The notes: generated by a model not told the origin, from the letters alone. A DNA stretch of 64,000 nt from Clostridia bacterium (GCA_017517685.1 JAFWYK010000010.1:130499-194498); one strand, 5' to 3'; shown: positions 16,306 to 32,758, counted from the first letter of the stretch. Program-made: numbers and translations.

Positions 16306-16564
16306 TTTTTGAGTTCATTCCTTTCTTATATATCTATATATGAATATTTGTTAGCATTAAAATTCACATTTAAATATAACATAAAAAGGAAAAAAAGTGA
16401 AGTAAATTGACGAAAATAGATAAATAAGCAAATAATTTGTTGCAAAAAGACAAAAGAACAGAAAAGGCGATGAAATCAATCATAAACAATTGGTTAACCA
16501 AACAAACATACTGTACACATAAAAAATGGTAATAATATTGGAAGTTATGGTATCCAAAAAATGG

Positions 16565-16673
16565 TGTGAATAATATATGTCGAAAAAAGATGAATAAATA
16601 GGTTATTCACAAACTTATCCACATTATCCACAATATAAAAAGTGGATAAATTTTGATTAAAAAATGTGGAAAA
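16565..16673. promoter_or_regulatory. DnaA-box cluster
   Basis: TTATCCACA at 16615..16623 and 16624..16632 (abutting). TTATTCACA at 16603..16611, and reversed at 16565..16573. TTATCCACT reversed at 16641..16649. TTTTCCACA reversed at 16665..16673. Confidence 0.7.
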
Positions 16674-16772
16674 ACTTAACATAACGTAAATAAAGATAAA
16701 ATTCAAAAATGTATTGAAGTATTTAAAAAAGTGTGATATTAATGTATTTATAAGGAATTCGGAGGTTTGAAT

Positions 16773-17390
16773 ATGAAATATTATATTGATTTTGATAATA
16801 CATTATATGAAACAGCGAAGTTAACTACATGTATGCTTGATGCTATTTGTAAAACTGTTGTGGAAAAATTAGGTAAAGAATATAGTGAAATAGATGAATA
16901 TGTAAAAGCAAATTTTAATTCTACTACAGATAATATTTTTACATTTGCTAGAGAAACAGGAAGTTATTACGGAATAGATCCGGATTTAGTAGAAAACAAT
17001 GTTAAAGCTGTAGTAGATAATGGAAATAATATTGTATTTGAGGATGCAGAAAGATTTTTAGCTAGATTAAAAGAAAATGGACATGAAGTTCATATATTAA
17101 CATATATACCAAAAACAAATCAAGAATATCAAATGAAAAAATTATTAGGTTCTGGATTAATGAAATATTTTGATACAATTACAATTACATCAAAATATAA
17201 GTTTTTACTTGATATGGATTATACACAAGGTATATATATAGATGATGATCCAAGAGATTTAAATGGATTATATGAAAAAAATCCAATTAAAGTAATTAGA
17301 ATAAGAAAACCAAATAATAAACGTTCTAAAATTGATATTGATAACAAAAATATTGAAGAATACGTATCGTTTGATGATATTGAAGTGTAA
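16773..17390 (+). CDS. HAD-superfamily hydrolase
   Basis: N-terminal DxDxT motif (YYIDFDNTLY). Start placed at ATG 16773 behind GGAGG. Confidence 0.7.
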   Translation: MKYYIDFDNTLYETAKLTTCMLDAICKTVVEKLGKEYSEIDEYVKANFNSTTDNIFTFARETGSYYGIDPDLVENNVKAVVDNGNNIVFEDAERFLARLKENGHEVHILTYIPKTNQEYQMKKLLGSGLMKYFDTITITSKYKFLLDMDYTQGIYIDDDPRDLNGLYEKNPIKVIRIRKPNNKRSKIDIDNKNIEEYVSFDDIEV

Positions 17391-17587
17391 AAAATTAAAA
17401 AATTACGTTATATATAGAAAATTTGTGAAAAATGCTATATATAGCGTATTATTTTTGTGCATAAAAAGAGAAAAACGATAAAAATATAAAATTTAACGAA
17501 AAACGTTAAAAAAGTGTTGACAAACATAAAATAGCGTGTTAACATAAGAATGTAAATTTAATTTTTTAAAAATGTAAGGAGATTAAA

Positions 17588-18112
17588 ATGAAAAAAGAAA
17601 TGAAAGAAAAAACAAAAGATACAAATAATATACAAAAGTTAATTAAATTTTTATCATTTGGTCAAGCTTTTTTAATAGCAGTACCATTAGTAAGATTAAT
17701 GCTTGTTATAATTGTAACAGTAGGATCAATGATTGCAGGTGAAAATGTAACTATAACTGAAGTTGCATATGAATTCTTTAATTTAGAAAAACCTGTGTTT
17801 ACAACATTAAAAGCTCAAGTAGTATATTATGCTTTTGTTATTTTTTCTGTTTTAGGATATATTATAAATATTTCATTATTAAATAAAATTGAAAAAATAT
17901 TAAGAAATACTGAAGAAGCGAAAACACCATTTACAGAAAACAATATTGTTTTACTTGATAAAATAAAAGGTTTAGTTTTTGTAAGTTTTATTACAATGTT
18001 TTTAGGAAATAAATTTGGAATGAGTTTAATTCCACTTGTTGTTGTAATAGGATTAATTGGAGTATTTAAACATGGATATAAATTACAACAAGAAGTAGAT
18101 GAGACATTATAA
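17588..18112 (+). CDS. Membrane protein (DUF2975-like partner of a YozG-type regulator)
   Basis: Four predicted TM segments. Overlaps and precedes a small XRE HTH gene, a recurrent Firmicute gene pair. Confidence 0.55.
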   Translation: MKKEMKEKTKDTNNIQKLIKFLSFGQAFLIAVPLVRLMLVIIVTVGSMIAGENVTITEVAYEFFNLEKPVFTTLKAQVVYYAFVIFSVLGYIINISLLNKIEKILRNTEEAKTPFTENNIVLLDKIKGLVFVSFITMFLGNKFGMSLIPLVVVIGLIGVFKHGYKLQQEVDETL

Positions 18113-18128
18113 TAAGGAGATGATAAAA

Positions 18129-18338
18129 ATGCCAATTATATTAAGATTAGATAGAATGATGGCTGATAGAAAAATATCATTAAATGAACTTTCAGAAAAA
18201 GTTGGAGTAGCAAATGTTAACTTATCAAAGATGAAAAACGGAAAAATAAGTGCTATAAGATTTTCAACATTAGAAGCTATTTGTGAAGTTCTAGATTGTC
18301 AGCCAGGAGATATATTAGAATATAAAAAAGAAAATTAA
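18129..18338 (+). CDS. XRE-family HTH transcriptional regulator (YozG-like)
   Basis: MPIILRLDRMMADRKISLNELSEKVGVANVNLSKMKNGK is a canonical short Cro/C1 HTH. Start placed at ATG 18129. Confidence 0.8.
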   Translation: MPIILRLDRMMADRKISLNELSEKVGVANVNLSKMKNGKISAIRFSTLEAICEVLDCQPGDILEYKKEN

Positions 18339-18375
18339 TGGTTGACTAAATCTTAAAAGTATTGTAAAATAGATT

Positions 18376-18590
18376 ACATAATATGAATCACGATGAAAAA
18401 GAGGAAATATTCAAATAGTGATTTACAGTGAGTTTGTGATAGTGAGAAACAAATAAGAGCTTAGATATTTTGGAACTTTGGAGTGATATTAATTAAGGTG
18501 GGTATTTTATACCAATTAGGGTGGAACCGCGCAAGTTGTTAGCTTACGTCCCTAGCTTTATGCTAAGGAAGTAAGCTATTTTTGTTTTTA
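18376..18590 (+). promoter_or_regulatory. T-box leader (glycine) with terminator
   Basis: Promoter TTGACT-17-TAAAAT at 18342..18370. Conserved T-box AATTAGGGTGGAACCGCG at 18514..18531. Terminator AGCTTAC.../...GTAAGCT plus a T-run at 18541..18590. Lies upstream of glyQS. Confidence 0.85.
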
Positions 18591-18667
18591 TAAAACTTAC
18601 TCCTTAGAAAAACTGTGAAAAAGGTTACCATGATTTTCACAGAATTAAATATAAAGGAGGTTTTATT

Positions 18668-20050
18668 ATGGTAGAATCAATGGAAAAAATTGTTAGTTTA
18701 TGCAAATCAAGAGGATATGTATATCCAGGATCTGAAATTTATGGAGGTCTTGCAAATACATGGGATTATGGACCACTTGGAGTTGAATTAAAAAACAATG
18801 TAAAAAAAGCATGGATGAAAAAATTTGTGCAAGAATCAAAATATAATGTTGGACTTGATGCAGCAATTCTTATGAATCCACAAACATGGGTTGCATCTGG
18901 ACACGTTGGAGGATTCTCAGATCCATTAATCGATTGTAAAGAATGTAAAACAAGACATAGAGCTGATAAACTTATTGAAGAATGGGCTCATGATAATGGA
19001 AAAGATATGATTGCTGATGGAATGAGTGATAGCGAAATGATTAAATTCATGGATGATAATAATATTAATTGTCCATCATGCGGAAAACATAATTTTACAG
19101 ATATTAGAAAATTTAACTTAATGTTTAAAACATTTCAAGGTGTTACAGAAGATGCTAAAGCTGAAATTTATTTAAGACCAGAAACAGCTCAAGGTATATT
19201 TGTAAACTTTAAAAATGTATTAAGAACTACAAGAAGAAAAATGCCAATGGGTATTGCTCAAATTGGTAAATCATTTAGAAATGAAATTACACCAGGAAAC
19301 TTTACTTTTAGAACAAGAGAATTTGAACAAATGGAACTTGAATTCTTCTGCAAACCAGGAACAGATATGGAATGGTTTGAATATTGGAAGAGTTATTGTA
19401 AAAAATGGCTTCTTGATTTAGGTATGAAAGAAGAAAATATGAGAATGAGAGATCATTCAAAAGAAGAATTATCTCACTATAGTAAAGGAACAACTGATAT
19501 AGAAGTTAAATTCCCATTTGGATGGGGAGAATTATGGGGAATTGCCAATAGAACTGATTTTGATTTAACGCAACATCAAAATCATTCTAAAGAAGATATG
19601 TCTTACTTAGATCCAGAAACAAACGAAAGATATGTACCATATTGTATCGAACCATCACTTGGTGCTGATAGAGTTACACTTGCTTTCTTATGTAATAGTT
19701 ATTATGAGGAGGAAGTAGGAGAAGGAGATGTAAGAACTGTATTAAAATTACATCCAGCACTTGCTCCATATAAATTAGCTGTACTTCCACTTTCTAAAAA
19801 ATTATCAGATAAAGCAGGAGAAGTATATGCAGAACTTTCTAAATACTTTATGTGCGACTATGATGAAGCAGGAAGTATAGGAAAGAGATATAGAAGAGAA
19901 GATGAAATTGGTACACCATATTGTGTAACAGTTGATTTTGAAACATTAGAAGATGGATGTGTAACAATAAGAGATAGAGATACAATGGAACAAATTAGAA
20001 TTAAAATTGAAGATGTTAAAGCATATATTGAAGAAAAAATAATGTTCTAA
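18668..20050 (+). CDS. glyQS: Glycine--tRNA ligase (alpha2 type)
   Basis: 460 aa. N-terminus [26 protein letters not shown] and the overall class II GlyRS pattern. Preceded by the T-box leader. Confidence 0.95.
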
Positions 20051-20263
20051 AATATTGACCGGCAGAAATGTCGGTCTTTTTAATGTAAAAAATTTAAAAA
20101 GTTAATATTCAGTTCAAATTGTAATGATATAAAAAGAGTATATTGTAAGAGAAAATTTACAATATAAATCCCCAAGTTTAAAATAAGGTTCAAAACTCTC
20201 TCTATTGGACCTTATTTTTTATTTATAATTATAAAATTTTTTTTGAAATATTTAAAAAAAGTG

Positions 20264-20292
20264 TTGACATCTTAATTTTTAGATAGTATAAT
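20264..20292 (+). promoter_or_regulatory. Promoter of tRNA-Leu
   Basis: Perfect TTGACA, 17 nt, TATAAT. Confidence 0.7.
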
Positions 20293-20330
20293 AAGTCTTG
20301 TCAGTTGGAAAACTGATTTGCCAGTAATAT

Positions 20331-20419
20331 GCAGATGTGGCGGAACTGGCAGACGCACAGGACTTAAAATCCTGCGGGCTTCAAATCCCGTGCCGGTTCG
20401 ATTCCGGCCATCTGCACCA
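20331..20419 (+). tRNA. tRNA-Leu (anticodon UAA), long variable arm, encoded CCA
   Basis: Acceptor GCAGATG/CATCTGC, anticodon stem CAGGA/TCCTG with loop CTTAAAA, variable arm, T-arm GCCGG TTCGATT CCGGC. Terminator at 20421..20454. Confidence 0.92.
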
Positions 20420-20717
20420 AAAGACGACTTTGAAAAAAGTCGTCTTTTCTTTTTATATCAGCACTTTCAGCCTTTCTCAACTGCTTTCAACTCTTTTTAG
20501 TTGCGGCTCTAAGAGTAAAGCTTTCAAAGCATTGAAATTATTGTTATTTTTTGTTAAATTTACATAAAATTTTATATATACTTATAAATATTTATGGGAT
20601 GAGCAAGGGATGAGTTTTTTAAAATATAAAAAAATGTGAATTTTGAATATATATGATATAATTAAGATAATACATTATAATTCTATATAATATATGTCAT
20701 ATACAGGAGGATTTTTA

Positions 20718-21185
20718 ATGAAAGAAATACCAATATTAGAAATACCAATATATTCTATGAGCCCCCAAAAATTTAGTGATAAATGGAATAATTTTTTTAA
20801 AAATAATTTTCCTCAAAATCATTTACTTAATGATATAAAAAGAACTTATTATCCTTTAAATATTTGGCAATATAATCAAATTATTGGATATATCACTATT
20901 AGTTGTTCAAAAAATGATATTTGGTTTGAAGAATATTTATCTTTTAATAAAGAAAAATTTTGGTTTAGAAGTAAAAATAAGGTATTTGTTCAAAAAATGA
21001 ATTTAAATGGATTTCATTTTAGAATAGAACCAGATGATACAAACGAAACAATAAGAAATCAAATTTTAGAATGGTTAGATTATTTACTTGATGATAAAAT
21101 ATTTAAAAATAGATATATTGATAGAAGTTTATTTGACATTCAATTACATAATCTTGATATTATAAAAATTATAAATGAATTATAA
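20718..21185 (+). CDS. Hypothetical protein (islet 1 cargo)
   Basis: ORF 20694..21185. Start placed at ATG 20718 behind AGGAGG. I recognise no motif. Confidence 0.6.
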   Translation: MKEIPILEIPIYSMSPQKFSDKWNNFFKNNFPQNHLLNDIKRTYYPLNIWQYNQIIGYITISCSKNDIWFEEYLSFNKEKFWFRSKNKVFVQKMNLNGFHFRIEPDDTNETIRNQILEWLDYLLDDKIFKNRYIDRSLFDIQLHNLDIIKIINEL

Positions 21186-21328
21186 TTTTTATAATATCAT
21201 AAGATGTTGTACGAGGAATAAATTAGCAATATAAAAGCAGAGATTTATAAAAATCTCTGCTTTTAATTAGTTTCCCCTAATTATCTATTTTTAAGTTTTA
21301 ATAAATGATAGAAAATGTTTAAAAGGAT

Positions 21329-22583
21329 TTAACGAACATCTTCTTTATCATCTAATAAATTATTTCTTTCATAATACGCATTAACTTTGTTGATTTCGTC
21401 TAATTTGAAATCATTAAAAATAGATGTATAAGTATTTAAAGTAATCTTAACATCAGAATGTCCCATTAATTTTTGTAATACAACAGCAGGCATACCAGCT
21501 TCGATCGAACGAGTTGCATAAGAATGTCTTAAAATATGTGTTGAGATTCCGGGGTCTCATAATATTTAAATTCTTACACATTCTTTTAAGCTGTGAATTC
21601 ATAGAATGTGGATGAACCAATTTATCTCCATAAGTAAATAAAAGGTTATCTTTATTGTTTTTTGAATATTCTAACTGTTCTATTATATGCTCTTTTAAAA
21701 ATTGGGGAATTGGTAACAATCTTTTTCCAGTTGCTGTTTTTGTAGATTTTCCCATAATGACAGCTCCAGTTTCATTAGTCGTTAGAGTTCTTGAAATTTG
21801 TATTGTGTCATTATCAAGATTTATATCGGTCGATTTTAAAGCTAAAGCTTCGCCAACTCTTAAACCAAGATATAGTTGAAGAAGAAATACATTCTTATAT
21901 TTTTCTTCGCTTATTTTTGATTTTAGAAGATATTGAGATAATATTTTGTGCTCTGTTAACGATAGTGCCGATAATTCTTTTTTATCTAATCTACTTTTAG
22001 GTTTTATTACATCTTCCATTGGATTGTCTTGAATAAATTTGCTTTTAACTGCAAATTTAAAAGATTGAGCAACTTGTTCCCAAACTTTCTTAATTGAAGA
22101 ATCACTATATTTATGTGAAAGTTCATTAAAGAATTTTTGAAGTTGCATATAAGAAATATCTTGAATATTTAATTTTCCTATAGAACTATTTTCAATAATT
22201 CTAATAGTATCTAATGTTCTTCTATAATAGCCAGGAGATATATCATTAGCTTCATATCTTTGTTGAAGATGTTTTCTTATAAGTTCGATTAAAGGTAATC
22301 CATGTTTAGTAATAAATTTAAAGTCATTAGATTGAAACATTAATTGTTTATATTTTTTTAAAGCTTCTTCCTTTGTTTTTCCAGATACACATTTTCTAAT
22401 TCTAGTTCCGTCAATACAATCATAAACATAAAATTTGTATTGCCAAGATTTATATCGTTTATCATAATAATATTGCCCTTCACCATTAGAGTGTGTGGCT
22501 TTTTTCTTTAGTTCGTCTAAATTTAGTTCCTTTTTAATTGCTTCGATTAATTCAGGATCTACACTAATTTTTGAATTGGTCAT
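21329..22583 (-). pseudogene. Tyrosine recombinase/integrase, frameshifted
   Basis: The 376-aa ORF has a SAM-like N-domain and a core-binding region, then loses sense after ...KNLNIMRP. The adjacent frame continues GISTHILRHSYATRSIEAGMPAVVLQKLMGHSDVKITLNTYTS (the HxxR and catalytic Y boxes) to a stop at 21329. Removing one G from the G4 run at 21551..21554 restores a single ORF. Confidence 0.85.
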
Positions 22584-22606
22584 AAATTCTCTCCATTCAT
22601 ATAAAT

Positions 22607-22735
22607 TAGCTCGAACGCCAAATGACTTCGACAGTCAAATATTTTAAAAAGGAGTATTTGATTTATGTGTGTGCCAAAAGAAAAAACACACAACAATATT
22701 ATATCAAAAATAGAAGAGAAAATCAATATTATGTA
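22607..22735 (+). repeat. Copy 1 of a roughly 128-bp repeat (region upstream of the integrase)
   Basis: Aligns by eye at about 85% with 26677..26804. Contains an SD plus a 23-codon mini-ORF (22665..22736) and two hairpins. Confidence 0.8.
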
Positions 22736-22998
22736 AACAAATCATCTATATAGAGAAGTATTTTTTATACTTTAATATGAGAAGTTATCTAATAGATAAC
22801 TTTTTATATTAAAGTATGCAAAGGGGTTATAAGGGGAAAATCCCCTTATCATACAGAGAACTTTTTTTAAGTTCTCTAGTATGTTATAGCACTTATAATT
22901 AAATGCTATTAGATATTCAAGCAATATACCAAGAATTGATAATTCATCATTTTTATGATATTATGAATAAAACTTATAATCGAGGTGATTTTTTGAAA

Positions 22999-23790
22999 AT
23001 GCCAAAAAGTGATAATTTCATTTTACATTTTGGAGTGTTATTAGATAGTTCTAAAATAAGAATGAATTTAACAAGAGATAATTACTCAATAATAGATAAA
23101 AATAATTATACAAAAAGGCGTGATGAATTATTAATTTTACTTAATTGGGATAAATGGAAAAAGCAAAAAGAAGAATTAGAATTTGATGAGTTTAAAACTA
23201 TAGTTTGTCCTCCTGGACTTAAGTTTGAAAAAGAAGATGGAAAATTAGTATTATCTAAAGAGTATTGTAATAGATATCATGAATTGTGTTTAAAAAATTA
23301 TGATTTAAATATGAAATTTTTAAGTAATTTAAATGAAAATGATTTTAATAACACTATTAATAAAATAATAAAAAAATTTAAAATGACAGAAATTAATGAT
23401 TTAAATAATTATGCTTCTAAGTTTGGTATATATATGTGTGTATTGGATAATTATAAACAGATATATATAGGACAAACCAAAACAAGTTTTAAAGAAAGAA
23501 TTTTACAGCATTGGAAAAATAAACCAAAATTTGATAAAATATTATTTGGTAATTCAAGAAAATCAGTTATATCATATGATTCTTATGGAGCTTTAGATAC
23601 AACAAGAATTTTTACTATATGTGAAACTAATCAAGATAAAATTGACACTCTTGAGAAAAGGATTGTAGATGCCATTTCAAAAGATTATCTTTGTAATAGA
23701 ATTGGTGGCGGAATTCATTTGAATAACATTAATGATCATTATGCTGCTATAAATAGTATGAATTTAAGAAAACTAGAAGATAATTTTTAG
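22999..23790 (+). CDS. GIY-YIG nuclease-domain protein with an unknown N-terminal domain
   Basis: C-terminal FGIYMCVLDNYKQIYIGQTKTSFKERILQHW matches the GIY...YIG...R...H pattern. Start placed at ATG 22999 behind GAGGTGA. Confidence 0.7.
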   Translation: MPKSDNFILHFGVLLDSSKIRMNLTRDNYSIIDKNNYTKRRDELLILLNWDKWKKQKEELEFDEFKTIVCPPGLKFEKEDGKLVLSKEYCNRYHELCLKNYDLNMKFLSNLNENDFNNTINKIIKKFKMTEINDLNNYASKFGIYMCVLDNYKQIYIGQTKTSFKERILQHWKNKPKFDKILFGNSRKSVISYDSYGALDTTRIFTICETNQDKIDTLEKRIVDAISKDYLCNRIGGGIHLNNINDHYAAINSMNLRKLEDNF

Positions 23791-23823
23791 ATAAATTTAA
23801 AAGATAATATAAATGGAGAAATT

Positions 23824-24813
23824 ATGGGAATATTAGATATATTTGATAAGTTTAGAGATGCAATAATTTTAAAAGAAGATTGTGAGTTAGAAAGAAAAGT
23901 AAAATATTTAGAAGAATTAAAAAATAAAAATCCTAATAATAAGAATATCACTCAACAATTATATATGGCACAAAAAGGATTAGAAGGCGAAAATGAAATA
24001 ATATATCAATTAAAAAAATCTAATATTGGTATGTTTATTCTTCATGATGTTAATTTAGTATATGAAGATTTAAAAGCCCAAATTGATTTTATTGTAATAA
24101 CTCCTTGGTGTTGTTATTTTATAGAATGTAAAAATCTAATTGGAAATATTTCAGTTAATGAAAAAGGAGATTTTATTAGAGAATATTCTTTTAAAGGTCA
24201 TAAAGTAAAAAAAGGAATGGAATCTCCTTATAGACAAGTTCAAGCACAAAGAGATGTTTATAAAAAAATTTGGTTAAAATTACAAGGAAAATTAAAAGGC
24301 TTTCTTTTTGAAAGAAACTTTGAAAGTTTTCATAGAGTATTAGTTGTTGCAGCTAATGGTGAAAATATATTAAATACCAAATATGCTCCTAAAGAAATGA
24401 AAAACAATATAATAAAAGCTGATGCTTTAATAAGAAAATTAGAATATGATAGAGATCATAGCGATAGAGATTTATGGGATAATAAAAAATCTATGGAACA
24501 ATGGGCGAATCATTTTATAAAATTAAATGTAGAAAAAGAAGAAAAATTTGAAATTAAATTTGAAGATTGTGAAGATAAAGTTGAAGCTTCAAATACAGAT
24601 GTATTAAAAGAAAAATTAATTGAATTTAGAAAACAAAGGTCAAAAGAAAAAAACATACCTGCTTATTATGTTTTTAATAATGACGAATTAGAGAAAATTT
24701 TGGAAATATTACCAAAAACATTTGAAGATTTAAAAAATTCTAAAATATTAACAGATGTTAAAATTAATTCTCATGGAAAAGATATTGTTAATATAATTAA
24801 TGAAATACAATAA
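23824..24813 (+). CDS. NERD-domain nuclease-like protein with a C-terminal HRDC-like domain
   Basis: GENEIIYQLK...HDV......QIDFIVITPWCCYFIECKN is the NERD (PD-(D/E)xK-like) pattern. C-terminal NIPAYYVFNNDELEKILEILPKTFEDLKN resembles HRDC. Starts 33 nt after the GIY-YIG gene with its own SD. Confidence 0.7.
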   Translation: MGILDIFDKFRDAIILKEDCELERKVKYLEELKNKNPNNKNITQQLYMAQKGLEGENEIIYQLKKSNIGMFILHDVNLVYEDLKAQIDFIVITPWCCYFIECKNLIGNISVNEKGDFIREYSFKGHKVKKGMESPYRQVQAQRDVYKKIWLKLQGKLKGFLFERNFESFHRVLVVAANGENILNTKYAPKEMKNNIIKADALIRKLEYDRDHSDRDLWDNKKSMEQWANHFIKLNVEKEEKFEIKFEDCEDKVEASNTDVLKEKLIEFRKQRSKEKNIPAYYVFNNDELEKILEILPKTFEDLKNSKILTDVKINSHGKDIVNIINEIQ

Positions 24814-24893
24814 TTACTAAAAAATCTATCAAAATGGGATGAGCAAAAAATAAAGTGTAGATGTATCAAGGGTTTGAGTATGCCACTTGTTAT

Positions 24894-24905
24894 CATCTGC
24901 ACCAA
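24894..24905 (+). repeat. att-type direct repeat of the tRNA-Leu 3' end (copy 1), followed by terminator 24904..24933
   Basis: CATCTGCACCAA is identical to 20409..20420. Upstream bases resemble a degenerate T-arm. Confidence 0.8.
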
Positions 24906-25801
24906 GCTTGAGTGAAAACTCAAGCTTTTTTTTATTATTTAACATTATTCAACATTATTTAAAAGTATTGCTACAGGCTAGTTCTGTAGCTTTTTTGATT
25001 TTTATCATTATTTGTCGTTATTTAAAATTATTGAACATTATTTGAATTTTACTACCCATTTTACTACCCACTTTTGAAAGAGAATATAATCTATGAAAGT
25101 GTTGAAATAAGTTGAATAGAGAAGTTTTATTATTTGTCGATATATAACATTATTCAATTTGATTTACCGACCATTTTACACACAAATTTATAAGTATTAT
25201 TTTTAAAACTTTATTTTTTGACAAGATGTTGAGAAAAAAGTGTATTTGTGATATATAGTATAAGAAGAAAATAAAAATAATATTATGATTGAATTGGAGA
25301 AAAAATCGATATAGATACAACTGAAATAAAATTAGCTACTTTAGATAAATATTCACAAGAATATAGTAAAGAGAAATTATTTAATGAATTAGAAAAAAAT
25401 AGTACGAAAAAAAATGAGCAGTATATATATTTAGTATATAGCATGTATATGGATTGTATGTGATGAAATATTATTAATTATGAATTTAAAGATAAAAAAT
25501 AAAACGATTATAAATGCTGCAGTTCTAAATAAATCAATCTTTTTACAGTATTGATTATAAATAATGGAAGACAAAAATAAAAAACTAGCAATTCTTACTT
25601 ATGTAAGTGTTCGTTAGTTTTTTTGTGGAGGCTCTAGCCATTCTTATTGATTGAAAATGTTGATATATAGTCATTTTATTTTCAAAATGGAGGAATTGGA
25701 GACAAATATAATTTTAAATAAAAAGAAATAATAAATAAATTTATAAAAGGATAAAAAATTAAAAACACTATTCGTCATTGAATAGTGTTTTTTTTATGTA
25801 T

Positions 25802-26380
25802 TTAAAGATCTTTTGATGGTTTTAAAACATCTTCCTCTGTTACAGTATTGAATTTAAAAATATATGTTTCCTCTAAAAATGGTTCTTCACAAGTAATTTT
25901 TTCTAAAGAATAGTTTTCTGAATTATAATATTTTTTGAAAATGTCTTGCATTTTATAAACATAGTTATTGTTTTCTTTCTTTAAAAAAGAAGTATTAGAA
26001 TTGTCTATACTAACTACGGATTTAATTTTTTCAATTAATGTATCATTAAATGAGTTAGATTCTAGGATTCCTTCATCTAATGTATAAATGTATGATATTT
26101 TTTCACCAGTTATAGTATTTTTCCAGTCTGTTGTTTGTAAAATATTGTTTTCATAGTTGTTAATTAAAATAATGTTATCTTTAAAATAAATTTCATTTAT
26201 AATTATTTTTTCATAATTATGTCTAGTTTCTAATTTTATATACATATTTTTGGCTGTAGTTATTTCAGCCGATTTTTTGTTTATATTATTAGTAATAATT
26301 TTTTGTGTTATAAGATTAGTTATTATAATTGAGATTGCAATTATAATAACTAAAATAATTATTTTTGATATTTTTTTCAT
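25802..26380 (-). CDS. N-terminally anchored hypothetical protein (paralog family with 29636..30340)
   Basis: Signal-anchor TM, SD AAAGGGG. The C-terminal FKFNTVTEEDVLKPS resembles IEFDCVTDEDMIVPD of the islet-3 protein. Confidence 0.65.
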   Translation of the reverse strand: MKKISKIIILVIIIAISIIITNLITQKIITNNINKKSAEITTAKNMYIKLETRHNYEKIIINEIYFKDNIILINNYENNILQTTDWKNTITGEKISYIYTLDEGILESNSFNDTLIEKIKSVVSIDNSNTSFLKKENNNYVYKMQDIFKKYYNSENYSLEKITCEEPFLEETYIFKFNTVTEEDVLKPSKDL

Positions 26381-26676
26381 AGTATAAACCCCTTTCGATG
26401 TATATGTGCAATGTATTTCGTTTTTTTATAGTAAACAATATTAAGTGAAATACTATAATAGACTTCATAAAAATAATATTTACTAATATTATATACTATA
26501 TAATTAGTGTTTGTCTAGAAAAAAGATAGAAATTAATCAAATTTTGAATAAAAACGATATAGTGAGTAAATCTAGTTGTATACTGGGATTGCTCACTATT
26601 TTTGTCGATTTTTCAATGAAATTCAAGGTAATTCAATGAAATTTTAAAATAAGCTTTTTTTCGTGCTATTATGAAG

Positions 26677-26804
26677 TTAGTTCGAACAACAAATGATTTC
26701 CGGAAATCAAATATTTTTAAAAGGAGTATTTGATTATGTGTGTGCCAAAAGAAAAACACACATAACTATTATATCAAAAAACAGCAAAAGTGATATTATG
26801 TTAA
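26677..26804 (+). repeat. Copy 2 of the roughly 128-bp repeat
   Basis: Same order of elements as 22607..22735. A 1-nt shorter A-run truncates the mini-ORF to 9 codons (26736..26765). Confidence 0.8.
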
Positions 26805-26922
26805 CTTTTAAGACTATTTAACATTATTCATTTGTATATATACTTGTCTGAAAAACAGTAAAAATGGGATGAGTTAAAAATAGAGTTTGCTTGTCCCAAG
26901 GCTTACAGAGTTCGTGTATTAA

Positions 26923-26935
26923 CCATCTGCACCAA
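26923..26935 (+). repeat. att-type direct repeat (copy 2), followed by terminator 26935..26965
   Basis: CCATCTGCACCAA, preceded by GTTCGTGTATTAA resembling the tRNA T-arm GTTCGATTCCGG. Confidence 0.8.
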
Positions 26936-27314
26936 ATCCTGAGTTTTTTGACTCAGGATTTTTTTATATTCAAAATTATATAAAGTTATACAACTGTTGA
27001 AAATAGTGGTTTTGCGAGTAGTTGTCAAAAATGCTTGCAAATTTTTTTTATTCAAAAATACTTAAAATTACCTAAAAATAACCCCATTTGTTCCCAATTT
27101 GTTCCCAGCATTTGTCCCCAAAAATAAAACCGCAAATTCTTGTATAGACAGGGATTGCTAAAACACGTTGTATAAAAATTTGTGCCCCAAATATTTAATA
27201 TCATACTTAGGATTTGCATAAGCTTAGAAGACTTATACATCAATGGTTTGATTGATTTTGTGATAAATAACAAAATATTTTAAAAAAAATTTGTTATCAA
27301 AATAAAAAAATATA

Positions 27315-27360
27315 TTGACACCGACATTTGTATGTGTAATAATATAGACAGACAATTGTC
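27315..27360 (+). promoter_or_regulatory. blaI-like promoter and operator
   Basis: TTGACA at 27315..27320. The perfect palindrome GACAATTGTC (27351..27360) sits inside ATAGACAGACAATTGTCTAT and resembles BlaI/MecI/CopY ACA-N2-TGT boxes. Confidence 0.55.
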
Positions 27361-27377
27361 TATTAGGAGGTGTTGAA

Positions 27378-27758
27378 ATGGAAGAAATATTTAAAAGTCT
27401 ACCAGATTCAGAATTAAAAGTAATGATGGTTATTTGGGAAAACGGAAGTAAAATGTCTACAGGAGAAATTTTAGCAGAATTAAAAGCTGATGTTGATTGG
27501 AAATTATCAACTCTACAAGTAATTCTTACAAGATTAACTGAAAAAGGTTTTTTAAAAAATGAAAAGGAAAACAGATTAAATTATTATACTTCAATAGTTG
27601 ATTGCTCAAAATATACAAAACATGAAACAAAAAATTTTATTAAAAAGATGTATAATAATTCAGCAAAAAAACTTATTGCATCTTTAGTTGAAGGAGATGA
27701 TTCTTTAACTGATAATGATATTGAGGAGATAAAAAGAATATTAGACAGGAGTAAATAA
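27378..27758 (+). CDS. BlaI/MecI/CopY-family transcriptional repressor
   Basis: Winged-helix N-terminus LSDSELKVMMVIWE....ST.EI...L......W..STLQVILTRLTEKGFL. Confidence 0.85.
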   Translation: MEEIFKSLPDSELKVMMVIWENGSKMSTGEILAELKADVDWKLSTLQVILTRLTEKGFLKNEKENRLNYYTSIVDCSKYTKHETKNFIKKMYNNSAKKLIASLVEGDDSLTDNDIEEIKRILDRSK

Positions 27759-27761
27759 TAT

Positions 27762-29453
27762 ATGATTGAAAATATTTTTTATAATGTTGTGTTCTTTGGA
27801 TCAATTATAAGTTTGTTTATAATCCCATTATTATTATTTTTGTCCAAGAACAAACACAAATACAAATTAAAAAATGTTTATAAAATTTATATGATAATTG
27901 TACTATTATTGATGTTGCTTATTACAGGTATTGATTTTTATAGTATAAAAAGAATTATTAATAAAAACGCAACTTTTAGTAATAATGATGTGCATGTAGA
28001 AAATATGCAACCTGAAATTATACTTGAAAAACCTGAAATAATAATTGAGGTAAATGAAAGTATTAATATAAAAAATAATTTCTTGTCTGACATTTATCAT
28101 GTTTTACCTAAATTATGGATTACAATAACTATATTACTTTTGGCGTATAATTTATTTATGTATATGAATTTCTTAAGTCGCGAAAAGAAGTATTTTTGTA
28201 AGGTCTATAATAAAGAAATAGATCTTATAATCTCAAATATATGTAATATATTAGGTCTGAATAAGGTTGATTATAAATTTTCTGATAAAGTAACAACACC
28301 AATGGTAGTTGGGTTATTCAAAAAAATTATAATACTTCCAAGCAATATTACAAGTATAGATAATTATGATATGGTTTTAAAACATGAAATTGTTCATATA
28401 AAAAATAAAGATATAGAATGTAAATTCTTGTTATTATTTTTAAGAATTATTTATTGTTTTAATCCTATAATATATAAATTTGTTGAACAAATAGATGAAG
28501 TATTAGAATTAAGATGTGATGAGATTGTTCTAGAAAATCAATCACAAGAATATAAAATAAAATATGCTCAAGTACTATTAAATCAAATTGAATCTAATAG
28601 AAAACAAAGATATGTTTTTTCTATGAATTTTGCAAATAAGAGAGGTAATATAATGAGAAGATTTTCTAACATTGTAGATAAGACAAAAAAGAAAAATGTT
28701 ATTGGAATATCTTGTGTAACTGCTGGAATTATTATTGTTTCTTCAGCAATTATTTTCTCAATACCAAGTGTGAATTTTGCAGTATTTAAAGAAAATGGTT
28801 TAGAAGAAGTTGAGAATAATACAGTTTTAGAAACTACAAAAGAAGAAACAGTAGAAAATATTGTAAAAGATAATACTAGTGATAATACAGAAACAGCCAA
28901 AAATGTTGTTGTAGAAGAACAAACTAATACAACAATAAGTGAACCTGTATTAGAGAATGAAACAAAAGATGAATCTAATAATGTTGATGATGTAAAGAAT
29001 AATGATAAAGCAGAAAAAATAGTAGAACCAACTGTGCAAGAAGAACCTAAATTAATAACAACAAAGAAAGTTTCAACGGTAAGTAAAGAGTTTTTTTCAC
29101 CTGTTAGTGGTGGAATACCAATTACAACTAAATTTAGTGGAGTAGGAAACCATGCAGGAGTAGATTATAAATTAGAACAAGGAAAAACAATTCAAGCAGC
29201 AGCTTCCGGTAAAGTTATATATTCAGGATATAAAGGTTCTTATGGTAATTGTATAATTATTGAACATGAAAATGGATTTAGGACTGTATATGCACATTGT
29301 AGTGAATTATTAGTAACAGTTGATGAGCAAGTAACTACTGGACAAAAAATAGCAGAATCAGGTGCAACTGGAAATGCAACTGGACCATGTTTACATTTTG
29401 AAATTAGAGATGCGGAAGGAAGGTATGTAGATCCAGAAATGTATTTAAATTAA
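27762..29453 (+). CDS. BlaR1-type M56 peptidase/sensor fused to a C-terminal M23 (LytM-type) peptidase domain
   Basis: HEIVHIKNKD (M56 HExxH) in the polytopic N-half. C-terminal HAGVDY...GSYGNCIIIEHENGFRTVYAHC...GPCLHFEIR is the M23 signature. No PBP-type sensor domain. Confidence 0.8.
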   Translation: MIENIFYNVVFFGSIISLFIIPLLLFLSKNKHKYKLKNVYKIYMIIVLLLMLLITGIDFYSIKRIINKNATFSNNDVHVENMQPEIILEKPEIIIEVNESINIKNNFLSDIYHVLPKLWITITILLLAYNLFMYMNFLSREKKYFCKVYNKEIDLIISNICNILGLNKVDYKFSDKVTTPMVVGLFKKIIILPSNITSIDNYDMVLKHEIVHIKNKDIECKFLLLFLRIIYCFNPIIYKFVEQIDEVLELRCDEIVLENQSQEYKIKYAQVLLNQIESNRKQRYVFSMNFANKRGNIMRRFSNIVDKTKKKNVIGISCVTAGIIIVSSAIIFSIPSVNFAVFKENGLEEVENNTVLETTKEETVENIVKDNTSDNTETAKNVVVEEQTNTTISEPVLENETKDESNNVDDVKNNDKAEKIVEPTVQEEPKLITTKKVSTVSKEFFSPVSGGIPITTKFSGVGNHAGVDYKLEQGKTIQAAASGKVIYSGYKGSYGNCIIIEHENGFRTVYAHCSELLVTVDEQVTTGQKIAESGATGNATGPCLHFEIRDAEGRYVDPEMYLN

Positions 29454-29635
29454 ATAATTGAAATATAATAAAAAATAAGCTATAATACAAATAACTTAAG
29501 TGATAATCGTATGAAGACACGATTGAAGATTAGAGATATGTTGACCACATATCTCTTTTTTGTTGATTTGATATTGAATAAAATATTATTATATGATTTA
29601 ATTTTATTAAATAAATATATAAAAGAGGTGTTTAT

Positions 29636-30340
29636 ATGAAAGATAATAATGTAAATAATAAGAAGAATAAAATATTATTTGTGGTATTAATAATAATAGC
29701 AATTATATTAATTCATTTTGTAAGAAATGCAATTATTATAAAATCTTTAGCTAATAAAGTGGAAGAATTGAAAAGTAGTGAATTAAATAATTATCATATT
29801 AAGTGGGTATCGTATTCTTTTGATACTACAACTGTATTTGATATTTATTATAAAGATGGAATGTATAGAAAAGATACATATAAATTAGATTATACTCATC
29901 CAACGCTACCGTATACAAAAGTATCTGAATATAAATTAAAAGATGGTTCAAAAGTTGGTATTTTTGAATTAGATCAAAAAGTAAAAACATATGATAAAAA
30001 TGATGAGCAAACTCAAGATGATTCTTTAATTTCTATAGCAAATTTTTCACATATTGAGATGTATTTGGTTACACCAAGTTCATTTATTAATAATTGTTTA
30101 TTAAATATAATAACAAAAGATAAAAATAATGGAGAAGATGTTTATAAAGTAACCTCAATATTTGATGATAAAACAGAATATTTTAGTTGTGATACAGGTT
30201 TAACTGTAAGATCAGATTCTTGGTATAGTACTAATACTAATTTTTATAATACACGTACAGATATTTTAATAGAGTTTGATTGTGTAACAGATGAAGATAT
30301 GATAGTACCAGATTTGGAAGGATATACTAATATTGATTAA
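29636..30340 (+). CDS. N-terminally anchored hypothetical protein (paralog of 25802..26380)
   Basis: TM anchor, SD AGAGGTG, shared C-terminal motif. Confidence 0.65.
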   Translation: MKDNNVNNKKNKILFVVLIIIAIILIHFVRNAIIIKSLANKVEELKSSELNNYHIKWVSYSFDTTTVFDIYYKDGMYRKDTYKLDYTHPTLPYTKVSEYKLKDGSKVGIFELDQKVKTYDKNDEQTQDDSLISIANFSHIEMYLVTPSSFINNCLLNIITKDKNNGEDVYKVTSIFDDKTEYFSCDTGLTVRSDSWYSTNTNFYNTRTDILIEFDCVTDEDMIVPDLEGYTNID

Positions 30341-30403
30341 TTTTTAATTGATATACTTATCGATTATGATAAGATAATAAGCAATCTTAGAAGGGAATAA
30401 TAA

Positions 30404-31072
30404 ATGATGAAAAAAGTATTTATTGTTATTATAGTTTTTGTTTTGATATTATTAAGTTTAGGATTGATATTTAAACAAAATATTGCTGAATTTTACACTG
30501 AAAAAATTTTAATGAAAGAATATGAAGAAAAATATTCAAAAGTAAAAAGCATTGATTATGAAATTGAATATAATAAAATTGAAAATAAGGTTTTAGAAAA
30601 TGAAATAGAATTAGGAAATTTAAAGGCTTCAATAATAAACTTTAATATCTCAGAAGAAAATAAAATGGAGATAGACTTAAAATTTTTTGGTAAAGAGCAA
30701 TTAAATGCAGTAGGGTATATTTTAAGAGTATATAATGATAAATACCATTTAGGAGATAGATATGATGGTAGTGTTTCAATAACAGGTGCTGATAATGCAA
30801 TGTATAGTGAAGTTTTTTATTCAAAAGTGTTTGAAGAATATTCTTTTGAAAAAAACTTATTAAATGTTACTAGTTTTTCATCACAAAAAGAATTGTTAGA
30901 TAGTGGTGAAGTAATATATAAGCTAATTTATGAATTGCCAGAAGAATTTCTTGTGCAAGATAAATTAAATATAAATTTATTTGATATAAATTATCAGTAT
31001 ATAGGAAATAAAGAATTTTATAAAGTTGCAGAACCATTATGTGAATTAAATTATACAATTAATATTAAATAA
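30404..31072 (+). CDS. N-terminally anchored hypothetical protein
   Basis: Signal-anchor followed by a 200-aa soluble region. Terminator at about 31170..31212. Confidence 0.6.
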   Translation: MMKKVFIVIIVFVLILLSLGLIFKQNIAEFYTEKILMKEYEEKYSKVKSIDYEIEYNKIENKVLENEIELGNLKASIINFNISEENKMEIDLKFFGKEQLNAVGYILRVYNDKYHLGDRYDGSVSITGADNAMYSEVFYSKVFEEYSFEKNLLNVTSFSSQKELLDSGEVIYKLIYELPEEFLVQDKLNINLFDINYQYIGNKEFYKVAEPLCELNYTINIK

Positions 31073-31255
31073 TAAAAAATAGAGAATATGATTCGTTAAT
31101 TATAGTTGTTTACAAGTATGAATGCAGAAAATAATTATAAAGTTTATGAATAGGATAATTAAGAGGAAATAAAGTACCCCATCTTGTATTTATATTACAA
31201 GATGGGGATTTTTATTCATCATATAATAAATATTCTATAAGATTTGAACGATAAC

Positions 31256-31669
31256 CTAGACGACGATCTTGGTATGAATATAAAATGTAATAATTTTAAT
31301 ACTTGTATCAGGAAGTGTTTTGGGTACTTCTGTTATTGCATAATATAAACATAAGTATTCTGTAGATTCATTGTATACTATTTTTTTAATAAAAAACCAA
31401 GGTTTTTTATTATGAGATATTAGGTATTGGTTTGTCAGAAATGTAAAAATAAAAAAAAGAATAATAATTATTTCTAATATTATTATAAATAATCGATTTT
31501 TTTTATTGCATCTATTCATATAAATGATAGAACCTATAAAACAAAGTAAAATGAAAATATTTAAATATAAATGGCTTTTTGCAACAGCTAATATCCATAA
31601 AGAAAAGGTAACAAATAAAAATGACAATATAAAAATTATTGATAAAATATGTATTAAAAATTTTTTCAT
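31256..31669 (-). CDS. Small polytopic membrane protein
   Basis: Three or four hydrophobic helices, SD GGGTGA. Confidence 0.55.
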   Translation of the reverse strand: MKKFLIHILSIIFILSFLFVTFSLWILAVAKSHLYLNIFILLCFIGSIIYMNRCNKKNRLFIIILEIIIILFFIFTFLTNQYLISHNKKPWFFIKKIVYNESTEYLCLYYAITEVPKTLPDTSIKIITFYIHTKIVV

Positions 31670-31920
31670 ATTAATAATTCACCCGTTTAAATATATTGAA
31701 ATAATTATATCATATATTGGATGTTAGTAAATAATATTAAAAAAGATTAATAAAAGATCTTATTATTGAATTTTATTAAATAATAAGAATGATGAAAAGA
31801 TTTATAAATTATAACATAATTTAAAAGTATTTGGGATTATTGGTTATGAATTCCTAAATTCACACCCTTAAAATGATTGTAAGCCTTAGAAAATAAATGA
31901 ATAGAGTGTTTTTTTCTGAG

Positions 31921-31932
31921 CATCTGCACCAA
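31921..31932 (+). repeat. att-type direct repeat (copy 3, distal end of the islet array), followed by terminator 31932..31961
   Basis: CATCTGCACCAA. Its terminator AATCTTGAG/CTCAAGATT is related to those after copies 1 and 2. Confidence 0.8.
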
Positions 31933-32074: not shown

Positions 32075-32758
32075 ATGAAATTACTTATTGATGATGCAGA
32101 TATCGAAAAAATTAGAAAAATTTATGAATTTTATGCAATAGATGGTGTAACAACAAATCCATCAATTTTAGCAAAATCAGGAAGAAAGCCATATGAAGTT
32201 TTAAGAGAAATTCGTGATCTTTTAGGTGAAGATGCAGAACTTCATGTACAAGTAGTATCTTCAAAAGCTGATGATATGGTAAAAGAAGGAAAGAAAATAG
32301 TAGAGAAATTAGGTAAAAACACATATGTAAAAATTCCTACAGTGCCAGAAGGATTAAAGGCAATGAGAATATTACATAATGAAGGATATAAAATAACAGC
32401 TACTGCAATTTATACACCACTTCAAGCATATTTAGCAGCAAAAGCTGGAGCTAATTATGCAGCACCATATGTAAATAGAATTGATAATTTAGGAACAAAT
32501 GGTATTGAAGTAACAAGAAAAATTCATGATATTTTTGAAAATAATGGATTTAAAACAGAAATTTTAGCAGCAAGTTTTAAAAACTCACTTCAAGTATTAG
32601 AACTTTGTGAATATGGAGTTGGAGCTGCTACAGTTGCACCAGATATTATTGAAGGATTTATTAATAATACTACAAATGTTCAAGCAGCTGTACAAGATTT
32701 TACAGATGATTTTGAAAAATTATGTGGTGAAGGAAAAACAATGTTAAATTGTGATTAA
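32075..32758 (+). CDS. Transaldolase-family protein (fructose-6-phosphate aldolase/Tal type 3B)
   Basis: MKLLIDDADIEKI...GVTTNPSILAK and the Schiff-base lysine context YVKIPT. 227 aa. Confidence 0.85.
   Translation: MKLLIDDADIEKIRKIYEFYAIDGVTTNPSILAKSGRKPYEVLREIRDLLGEDAELHVQVVSSKADDMVKEGKKIVEKLGKNTYVKIPTVPEGLKAMRILHNEGYKITATAIYTPLQAYLAAKAGANYAAPYVNRIDNLGTNGIEVTRKIHDIFENNGFKTEILAASFKNSLQVLELCEYGVGAATVAPDIIEGFINNTTNVQAAVQDFTDDFEKLCGEGKTMLNCD

What the first reader, a model, noticed from the sequence alone, without database searches (positions are those of the whole stretch)
22999..24813. GIY-YIG protein plus NERD/HRDC protein: candidate two-nuclease defence module on islet 1
Two co-oriented genes lie 33 nt apart, each with its own SD. 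They sit at the distal end of the integrase-bearing islet.

The first is a 263-aa protein with an unknown 170-aa N-domain and a C-terminal GIY-YIG nuclease motif. The second is a 329-aa protein with a NERD nuclease-related domain and an HRDC-like C-terminus.

I do not recognise this pairing of two predicted nucleic-acid-cleaving or binding proteins on a mobile islet as a named defence system. The context and domain content fit an anti-phage or anti-plasmid function.
Basis: inference. Interest (0 to 1): 0.65.

Follow-up and report, generated by a model that had tools for sequence, protein, structure and literature searches.

The report
Uzume gene beside lone NERD-HRDC nuclease
The two genes are real, but the first belongs to Uzume, an already named one-gene anti-phage system, and the second is a separate, uncharacterised nuclease gene that lies next to it only in this one mobile islet, so they are not a new two-gene defence system.

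Summary
Two co-oriented genes lie 33 nt apart, each with its own SD. They sit at the right end of a 4.5-kb islet bounded by a 12-nt repeat of the tRNA-Leu 3' end.

- Gene 1 (22999-23790) matches the PADLOC UzuA model at E 5.5e-61. UzuA is Uzume, a named single-gene defence system with a GIY-YIG domain. All GIY-YIG catalytic residues are invariant.
- Gene 2 (23824-24813) is a NERD (PD-(D/E)xK) plus HRDC protein with an intact D..ExK motif. It matches no known defence model.

The pairing is not conserved.
- 0 of 80 UzuA loci from species-representative genomes carry a NERD/HRDC gene nearby.
- 0 of 80 NERD-HRDC loci from metagenomes carry a UzuA gene nearby.
- At 93% identity the NERD-HRDC gene sits alone between two att copies.
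- At 86% identity a Fic protein takes UzuA's place.

The locus is therefore two independent single-gene cargo modules, probably co-transcribed and joined recently in one islet lineage.

The only part that may be new is the standalone NERD-HRDC family. It is a plausible but untested single-gene defence nuclease. Its neighbours include several defence genes (bSEFIR, SoFic-like, UvrD-like helicase) and also housekeeping genes.

The parts
20331..20419 (+). tRNA-Leu (anticodon taa), the integration target of the islet array
   Evidence: ARAGORN
20409..20420 (+). attL core CATCTGCACCAA, the 3' end of the tRNA
   Evidence: Exact 12-mer found 4 times in the window against 0.01 expected. Alignment.
20594..20606 (+). 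ATGGGATGAGCAA motif inside the left end of the islet. It may be an integrase arm site.
   Evidence: 2 exact copies in the window against 0.08 expected. A similar motif lies near att3 and near the L124 att.
20694..21185 (+). 163-aa cargo ORF with no family match. This slot varies between islet copies.
   Evidence: No hit in Pfam, PADLOC, NCBIfam or PHROGs. Relatives carry a 155-aa ORF or a 288-aa DUF5677 protein here instead.
21329..22583 (-). Tyrosine integrase split by a frameshift into a 376-aa ORF and a 54-aa ORF that holds the catalytic Tyr box
   Evidence: Pfam Phage_integrase hits on both pieces. The alternative frame reads HILRHSYATRSIEAGMPAVV..GHSD..TLNTY. The same split is present in all close relatives.
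22936..22964 (+). Promoter-like site (TTGATA-17-TATTAT with TG) ahead of gene 1
   Evidence: Consensus scan, 10 of 12 matches. This is weak evidence in AT-rich DNA: 21 sites found against 24 expected.
22999..23790 (+). UzuA homologue (Uzume): an N-terminal domain of unknown fold plus a C-terminal GIY-YIG nuclease
   Evidence: PADLOC UzuA 5.5e-61. Invariant Y145, Y156, R167, H171, E219 and N233. AF2 pLDDT 93.6. Foldseek finds the GIY-YIG domains of UvrC and I-TevI.
23824..24813 (+). Standalone NERD (PD-(D/E)xK) plus HRDC protein
   Evidence: Pfam NERD 57.2 bits and HRDC 47.8 bits. Invariant E56, E58, D75, D88, E101 and K103. AF2 pLDDT 86.2. HRDC TM 0.86 to D. radiodurans RecQ HRDC3.
24834..24846 (+). 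Second copy of the ATGGGATGAGCAA motif, inside the right end of the islet
24894..24905 (+). attR core CATCTGCACCAA, the right border of the islet
   Evidence: blastn homology with L001-L016 ends at 24905/24907.
24904..24937 (+). Intrinsic terminator after attR. It is the likely end of the two-gene transcript.
   Evidence: 10-bp stem followed by a T-run. No terminator was found between the two genes.

Best explanation
A 4.5-kb islet integrated into the 3' end of tRNA-Leu(UAA) carries two unrelated single-gene nuclease modules. They have been brought side by side and are probably read as one transcript.

**Gene 1: a Uzume (UzuA) homologue.** It has an N-terminal domain of unknown fold, presumably the part that recognises the target or trigger. 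It also has a catalytically intact GIY-YIG endonuclease, presumably the effector that cuts nucleic acid during phage infection. Family membership is shown. The cutting mechanism is inferred, because the literature read here lists Uzume's mechanism as unknown.

**Gene 2: a standalone NERD-type PD-(D/E)xK nuclease fused to an HRDC nucleic-acid-binding domain.** It belongs to a separate family that moves as a one-gene cassette. It most likely acts on its own, with HRDC holding a DNA or RNA structure and NERD cutting it. I rate it about as likely as not to be a single-gene defence effector.

The two proteins do not form an obligate system. The juxtaposition is a recent event specific to this islet lineage.
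For: **Gene 1 is Uzume.**
- PADLOC UzuA at 5.5e-61, covering profile positions 50-267 of 277 and 97% of the protein.
- 21 of 21 relatives also hit UzuA.
- The GIY..YIG, R, H, E and N positions are invariant.
- The AF2 model is confident, and only its C-terminal domain matches GIY-YIG structures.
- Uzume is described as a single-gene GIY-YIG system and as enriched in Actinobacteria. That fits the Arthrobacter and Microbacterium hits.

**UzuA has no fixed partner.**
- 0 of 80 UzuA loci have a NERD/HRDC ORF within 5 kb.
- The downstream ORFs fall into 60 unrelated clusters.
- A Pfam scan of 69 downstream ORFs finds no NERD or HRDC.
- UzuA relatives at 49-61% identity have other neighbours.

**NERD-HRDC is independent.**
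- 0 of 80 NERD-HRDC loci have UzuA within 8 kb.
- Its neighbours fall into 154 clusters, and the largest is found in only 10 loci.
- At 93% identity the gene sits alone between two att cores 1343 bp apart, in 21 contigs.
- At 87% identity it follows an att copy directly, and homology with the window begins exactly at the UzuA stop codon.
- At 86% identity a Fic-motif protein sits 31 nt upstream in UzuA's place.

**The two genes probably share a transcript here.** The gap is 33 nt, there is no terminator between them, and there is a terminator after attR.

**The islet is mobile.**
- att repeats bound it.
- It is 98% identical in L009, where the flanking glyS is only 84% identical.
- Its GC content is lower than that of the core genes.
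Against: - In every contig with a NERD-HRDC protein at 96% identity or more that I examined, the pair is kept with the same 32-33-nt spacer and no internal terminator. Functional cooperation within this lineage is therefore not excluded.
- No experiment was done here, and no transcript evidence is usable. The RNA-labelled runs gave only fragmentary low-depth contigs.
- My NERD-HRDC profile was built from relatives at 57% identity or more, so very distant NERD proteins near UzuA could be missed. The Pfam scan covers only the immediate downstream ORF.
- A defence role for NERD-HRDC rests on association only. Many of its neighbours are housekeeping genes.
Confidence: 0.75

Rival explanations
1. 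One reading: the GIY-YIG and NERD/HRDC proteins work together as a dedicated, previously unnamed two-nuclease defence system.
For: - The two genes are co-oriented with a 33-nt gap and no terminator between them.
- The pair is kept in all islet copies whose NERD-HRDC protein is at least 96% identical.
- Both proteins have intact active sites.
Against: - Co-occurrence is 0/80 and 0/80 across both families.
- The pair breaks at 93%, 87% and 86% identity.
- The homology boundary in L124 falls exactly at the UzuA stop codon.
- UzuA's family is described as single-gene.
- NERD-HRDC genes usually lie within 150 nt of a co-oriented neighbour, and those neighbours are unrelated to one another. Close spacing is therefore not informative.
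Confidence: 0.07
2. The NERD-HRDC gene is not a defence gene. It is a DNA repair or recombination accessory nuclease, or an RNA-processing one, that happens to ride on islets. Only UzuA is immune cargo.
For: - Relatives sit in housekeeping settings: between plsX-acpP-HD and rnc, next to hpt and transaldolase, directly before a true Ogt with a PCHRV site in 6 loci, and next to BipA.
- HRDC is typical of RecQ and RNase D.
- There is no PADLOC system hit beyond the HRDC tail of DpdF.
- The gene is rare on plasmids and phages.
Against: - The position is highly variable, with no conserved synteny.
- The gene recurs as an att-bounded cassette or as islet/IME cargo.
- Its neighbours include UzuA, Fic/SoFic-like proteins, bSEFIR, TIR/nSTAND3 and a GajB-like UvrD helicase.
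- NERD nucleases are established effectors in HEC-02 and ZwsA.
Confidence: 0.3
3. Gene 1 is a selfish GIY-YIG homing-type endonuclease rather than an immune gene.
For: - The best structural neighbours are I-TevI and phage intron-associated or Seg-like endonucleases.
- One relative also hits a PADLOC homing-endonuclease model.
Against: - Only the ~90-residue catalytic domain matches.
- The full length matches UzuA far better, at 204.7 bits.
- There is no NUMOD or IENR DNA-binding module, and no PHROG hit.
- The family is chromosomal across Bacillota and Actinomycetota.
Confidence: 0.05

Closest known systems
Uzume (UzuA), a single-gene anti-phage system (Millman et al. 2022, as catalogued in PADLOC and DefenseFinder)
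   Same: - Full-length match to the UzuA profile.
- A C-terminal GIY-YIG domain with all catalytic residues.
- No conserved partner gene.
   Different: - The window protein belongs to a long Clostridial subgroup of about 260-280 aa. It has an insert of about 45 residues (roughly residues 40-85) that the ~220-aa Bacillus/Clostridium forms lack.
- It lacks the first ~50 positions of the PADLOC profile.
- It is at most 61% identical to anything in the species-representative genomes.
ZwsA (Zowangsin), a standalone NERD-domain RNA endonuclease active against RNA phages (bioRxiv 10.64898/2026.04.06.716636)
   Same: - One polypeptide combining a NERD nuclease with a nucleic-acid-binding domain, acting alone.
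- An E/D...ExK catalytic set (compared).
   Different: - ZwsA has VHS, DUF647, NERD and S4 domains and is much larger. Here the architecture is NERD plus HRDC only, in 329 aa.
- No sequence relationship was tested or claimed.
- The substrate is unknown here.
HEC-02 (ABC ATPase plus NERD effector) and Nhi (NERD-like nuclease fused to a helicase)
   Same: A NERD-type PD-(D/E)xK nuclease serves as the immune effector.
   Different: - There is no ABC ATPase gene next to the gene and no helicase domain within it.
- In a few relatives a UvrD-like helicase gene lies 4-61 nt upstream, which resembles a split nuclease-helicase. That is not the case in this window.
Other single-gene GIY-YIG defence proteins: PD-T4-3 and PD-Lambda-1
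   Same: A GIY-YIG effector in a one-gene system. PD-T4-3 structures appear among the weak Foldseek hits.
   Different: PADLOC assigns gene 1 to UzuA, not to these. The N-terminal domains are unrelated as far as could be seen.

Membership tests
Uzume (UzuA) | Significant full-length match to the UzuA profile HMM | tested here: met
   PDLC03975 at E 5.5e-61 and 204.7 bits. Protein residues 6-260 match profile positions 50-267 of 277. 21 of 21 aligned relatives also match, best 6.2e-94.
Uzume (UzuA) | GIY-YIG nuclease domain with catalytic residues | tested here: met
   Pfam GIY-YIG at 22.7 bits against a cut-off of 22.6. Y145, Y156, R167, H171, E219 and N233 are invariant in 21 sequences. Foldseek finds UvrC and I-TevI GIY-YIG domains, TM 0.58-0.64 normalised to the target.
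Uzume (UzuA) | Single-gene system with no obligate partner | tested here: met
   The downstream ORFs of 69 family members form 60 clusters with no recurrent Pfam family. The system is described as single-gene in 10.1101/2024.10.26.620412.
Uzume (UzuA) | Confers resistance to phage | not testable with these tools
   Needs cloning and phage challenge.
NERD (PF08378), PD-(D/E)xK nuclease | Pfam match above the gathering score, and a D...(D/E)xK motif | tested here: met
   57.2 bits against a cut-off of 22.1. D88 and E101-C-K103, plus E56, E58 and D75, are invariant in 31 sequences.
NERD (PF08378), PD-(D/E)xK nuclease | Restriction-endonuclease-like fold | tested here: inconclusive
   The AF2 model is confident at pLDDT 86. 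Foldseek hits to SduA, Bax1, VC1899, AF1548, Can2 and Cas4 have weak E-values of 0.01-0.5.
HRDC (PF00570) | Pfam match and the five-helix HRDC fold | tested here: met
   47.8 bits against a cut-off of 23.8. TM 0.86 and rmsd 1.6 Å to D. radiodurans RecQ HRDC3. PDB sequence hit 2rhf at 3.4e-4.
Nhi (nuclease-helicase immunity) | Nuclease fused to an SF1 helicase | tested here: not met
   The protein is 329 aa with only NERD and HRDC domains. There is no helicase domain and no PADLOC Nhi hit.
HEC-02 | ABC ATPase gene adjacent to the NERD gene | tested here: not met
   The neighbours are UzuA and attR. No ATPase ORF lies in the islet and there is no PADLOC hit.
Shedu (SduA, DUF4263) | Match to the SduA/DUF4263 model | tested here: not met
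   No PADLOC or Pfam hit. There is only a weak structural similarity of the nuclease core.
Dpd (DpdF) | Full-length DpdF helicase | tested here: not met
   The PADLOC DpdF hits cover only the C-terminal HRDC tail: profile positions 513-605 of 611 against protein residues 234-327.

The most novel reading that the evidence does not exclude
The standalone NERD-HRDC protein is the founding example of an undescribed single-gene defence family. The family has about 176 clusters at 50% identity with E<=1e-30. It travels as a one-gene, att-bounded cassette and is repeatedly placed beside other one-gene defences: UzuA here, Fic/SoFic-like proteins and bSEFIR elsewhere. On this reading, its HRDC domain recognises a phage nucleic-acid structure that the NERD nuclease then cuts. 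It may do so with the help of a host or neighbouring SF1 helicase, as in the loci where a UvrD-like gene lies directly upstream.
Probability: 0.4. Interest if true: 0.5.

Novelty: new member of a known kind. Interest (0 to 1): 0.3.

Why it matters
- **What the result removes.** There is no new two-nuclease system here. The GIY-YIG gene is a divergent Clostridial member of Uzume. It is at most 61% identical to any species-representative genome.
- **A possible use for gene 1.** Uzume's mechanism is still listed as unknown. A confident AF2 model and the list of invariant residues could help to dissect it.
- **What remains worth a test.** The NERD-HRDC family is moderately widespread in gut Clostridia. 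It has an intact active site, moves as a single-gene cassette and has no described function in the literature searched. If it protects against phage, it would add a compact nuclease-plus-HRDC effector to the known single-gene systems.
- **A side benefit.** The locus is a clean small example of how islets pile up in tandem at one tRNA gene and swap cargo.

Tried and rejected
- **A hidden common partner for UzuA.** The small ORFs after UzuA relatives are unrelated to each other and to NERD. One is a 158-aa MGMT-like protein with no active-site Cys, and another is a 154-aa unknown.
- **A phage origin for NERD-HRDC.** The IMG/VR pattern scan found nothing. There was one unannotated phage record and 8 plasmid records at under 40% identity. 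The PHROG hits were weak only.
- **Transcript evidence for an operon.** The RNA-labelled runs gave fragmentary Logan contigs at depth 1-10 with no strand information. One run covers only the NERD gene, with different upstream sequence. I judged this inconclusive.
- **The fold of the UzuA N-terminal domain.** It has no match in the PDB or BFVD. The PDB profile search gave only chance hits.
- **A longer start for gene 1 (22903 or 22963).** Neither has an SD, and homology to relatives does not extend upstream. I kept 22999.
- **The Millman 2022 preprint.** It does not use the name Uzume in its text. The single-gene and GIY-YIG description is therefore cited, and the experimental validation rests on my own knowledge of the published paper.
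- **A formal defence-score for NERD-HRDC neighbours.** This could not be computed, because the family-scan tool returns family counts and not per-gene calls.

Full report
**1. What is in the sequence**

The window comes from a very AT-rich Clostridia-like genome. GC is 0.20-0.25 in the islets and 0.28-0.32 in core genes.

- Gene 1 runs 22999-23790 (+) and encodes 263 aa. A GAGGTGA Shine-Dalgarno sequence precedes it.
- Gene 2 runs 23824-24813 (+) and encodes 329 aa. A GGAGA sequence precedes it.
- 33 nt separate the two genes.

Pfam finds these domains:

| Gene | Domain | Residues | Score |
|---|---|---|---|
| 1 | GIY-YIG | 141-224 | 22.7 bits (cut-off 22.6), borderline |
| 2 | NERD | 51-153 | E 2.8e-15 |
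| 2 | HRDC | 263-325 | E 1.4e-12 |

The described observation is therefore correct. The pre-GIY-YIG domain is nearer 140 than 170 residues.

**2. The islet**

- tRNA-Leu(taa) lies at 20331-20419.
- Its last 12 nt, CATCTGCACCAA, recur at 24894-24905.
- Sixteen related metagenomic contigs share 97-98.6% identical DNA with the window, and this identity stops at 24905/24907.
- In each contig long enough to show both ends, two copies of the core bound the block, 4.5-4.8 kb apart.

The islet contains, in order:
- a 163-aa ORF with no family match;
- a tyrosine integrase on the minus strand, split by a frameshift near 21551-21560. The second frame reads HILRHSYATRSIEAGMPAVV...GHSD...TLNTY, so the catalytic Tyr is out of frame;
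- gene 1;
- gene 2.

In contig L009 the islet is 98% identical to the window, but the nearby glyS gene is only 84% identical and lies on the other side in the opposite orientation. This points to horizontal spread of the islet.

**3. Gene 1 is a Uzume homologue**

- Against PADLOC-DB, gene 1 matches UzuA at E 5.5e-61 (204.7 bits) over residues 6-260.
- All 21 members of my alignment of relatives match the same model.
- Uzume is listed as one of three single-gene systems with a GIY-YIG domain (10.1101/2024.10.26.620412).
- Its mechanism is listed as unknown (PMC12926258; PMC10482375).
- The alignment shows the full GIY-YIG catalytic set as invariant: Y145, Y156, R167, H171, E219 and N233. It also shows a conserved NYDLNM helix in the N-terminal domain.
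- AlphaFold2 gives a confident model, with pLDDT 93.6.
- Foldseek recognises only the C-terminal domain. Its matches are the UvrC and I-TevI GIY-YIG domains and phage intron-associated endonucleases. The N-terminal domain matches nothing.

**4. Gene 2 is a NERD-HRDC protein with no described role**

- In 31 relatives the PD-(D/E)xK positions D88 and E101-x-K103 are invariant, as are E56, E58 and D75.
- The AF2 model has pLDDT 86.2.
- Its C-terminal domain superposes on RecQ HRDC domains at TM 0.86 and rmsd 1.6 Å.
- Its N-terminal domain gives weak hits to PD-(D/E)xK nucleases such as SduA, Bax1, VC1899 and Can2.
- PADLOC returns only the HRDC tail of DpdF.
- NCBIfam returns only RecQ and RNase D tails.
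- No paper in the library links NERD plus HRDC to any function.
- The family is of moderate size: 176 clusters at 50% identity with E<=1e-30, and 556 with E<=1e-10. Most members are 320-350 aa and match end to end.

**5. Do the two genes belong together?**

They are kept together in the close islet copies I examined, where the NERD-HRDC protein is about 96% identical. Beyond that the association disappears in both directions.

Starting from UzuA:
- Relatives at 49-61% identity have no NERD neighbour.
- None of 80 UzuA loci from species-representative genomes has a NERD/HRDC-family ORF within 5 kb.
- Their downstream ORFs fall into 60 clusters and include no NERD or HRDC domain.

Starting from NERD-HRDC:
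- None of 80 metagenomic loci has a UzuA ORF within 8 kb.
- Neighbours fall into 154 clusters, and none is present in more than 10 loci.

The closest informative relatives show most clearly that the pairing is recent:

| NERD-HRDC identity | Loci | What lies around the gene |
|---|---|---|
| 93% (P0105, 21 contigs) | L208-L211 | The gene sits alone between two att cores 1343 bp apart. There is no integrase and no UzuA. |
| 87% | L124 | The gene directly follows an att copy. Homology with the window starts exactly at the UzuA stop codon. |
| 86% | L212 | A Fic-motif protein (HPFSDGNGRTAR) lies 31 nt upstream, where UzuA lies here. |

Close spacing is not informative either. Most NERD-HRDC genes lie within 150 nt of a co-oriented neighbour, and those neighbours are unrelated to one another.

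I conclude that the pair is two independent cassettes joined in one islet lineage. They are probably co-transcribed here, because there is no terminator between them and there is a terminator at 24904-24937 just past attR. The promoter assignment at 22936-22964 is weak.

**6. How it most likely works**

*UzuA.*
- Shown: family membership and intact GIY-YIG chemistry.
- Inferred: the N-terminal domain recognises a phage feature or trigger, and the GIY-YIG domain cleaves nucleic acid.

*NERD-HRDC.*
- Shown: an intact PD-(D/E)xK motif, an HRDC fold, and cassette-like mobility.
- Inferred: HRDC binds a structured DNA or RNA, and NERD cuts it.

Evidence for an immune role of NERD-HRDC:
- It is cargo on islets and on an integrative mobilisable element.
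- It has defence-type neighbours: UzuA, Fic/SoFic-like proteins, bSEFIR, TIR/nSTAND3, and a GajB-like UvrD helicase directly upstream in three loci.
- NERD nucleases are proven effectors in HEC-02 and ZwsA.

Evidence against an immune role:
- Many neighbours are housekeeping genes, such as rnc, ogt, bipA and tal.
- No formal enrichment could be computed.

I put the defence reading at about 0.4-0.5.

**7. Verdict**

The two genes are nuclease-type, probably immune cargo on a mobile islet, but they are not a new two-gene system.
- Gene 1 is a new, divergent member of a known kind.
- Gene 2 is an uncharacterised family worth a simple phage-challenge test.
- Overall interest is modest.

Noticed in passing
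window 20409, 24894, 26924, 31921 (all + strand): The 12-nt att core CATCTGCACCAA occurs four times against 0.01 expected. Each copy is followed by its own hairpin and T-run terminator. tRNA-Leu therefore carries a tandem array of three att-bounded islets: A 20409-24905, B 24906-26935 and C 26936-31932. Core genes resume with transaldolase at 32075.
   Followed up: partly
window 21329-22583 (-), frameshift near 21551-21560: The islet integrase is split into 376-aa and 54-aa ORFs, with the catalytic Tyr box in the second frame. The identical split is present in all related contigs from different samples and flanking contexts. It is therefore not a sequencing error. How the islet still spreads is unexplained. 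A helper integrase, frameshifting and recombination are all possible.
   Followed up: partly
window 20694-21185, compared with L001:3461-4327 and L009:2894-3361: The left cargo slot of the islet varies between copies, while the int-UzuA-NERD block stays 97-98% identical. It holds a 163-aa unknown here, a 155-aa ORF in L009 and a 288-aa DUF5677 protein in L001.
   Followed up: no
window 24928-25170: AT-rich repeats with a 10-nt phase (ATTATTT..., families D1 and D2) and three TTTACTACCCA-like repeats lie just right of attR, in the small integrase-less islet B. They look like iterons or protein-binding sites.
   Followed up: no
window 20594-20606 and 24834-24846; also near 26870 and L124:925-940: The motif ATGGGATGAGCAA occurs twice against 0.08 expected, inside both ends of the islet. 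Related AAAATGGGATGAG copies lie next to other att sites. It may be an arm-type integrase binding site.
   Followed up: partly
L009 (contig ONAT22-1...scaffold_64), compared with window 15823-24905: The islet plus tRNA region is 98% identical to the window. The glyS gene is only 84% identical, and it lies downstream of the islet in inverted orientation. This indicates a different host lineage and gene order around the same islet.
   Followed up: no
L147:5682-7940, L195:5685-7952, L205:5685-7952: In three metagenomic loci a 753-756-aa UvrD-like helicase (PADLOC GajB/RTasHel-like hits) ends 4-61 nt before the NERD-HRDC gene. This resembles a split nuclease-helicase pair.
   Followed up: partly
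L212:989-1972 and L042:6161-7249: Fic-domain proteins with a C-terminal wHTH flank NERD-HRDC genes in two unrelated contexts. One of them is 31 nt upstream, in the position UzuA occupies in the window. One member of the neighbour set hit PADLOC SoFic at 3.9e-88.
   Followed up: partly
window 27378-29453 (+): Islet C carries a BlaI/MecI-type repressor followed by a BlaR1-type M56 sensor protease. The protease's C-terminus is an M23 peptidase domain rather than a penicillin-binding domain.
   Followed up: no
L141, L143, L146, L148, L149, L155: In six loci a genuine Ogt (169 aa, with a PCHRV active site) starts immediately after the NERD-HRDC stop codon. This is a DNA-repair-type association that argues against a purely immune role.
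   Followed up: partly
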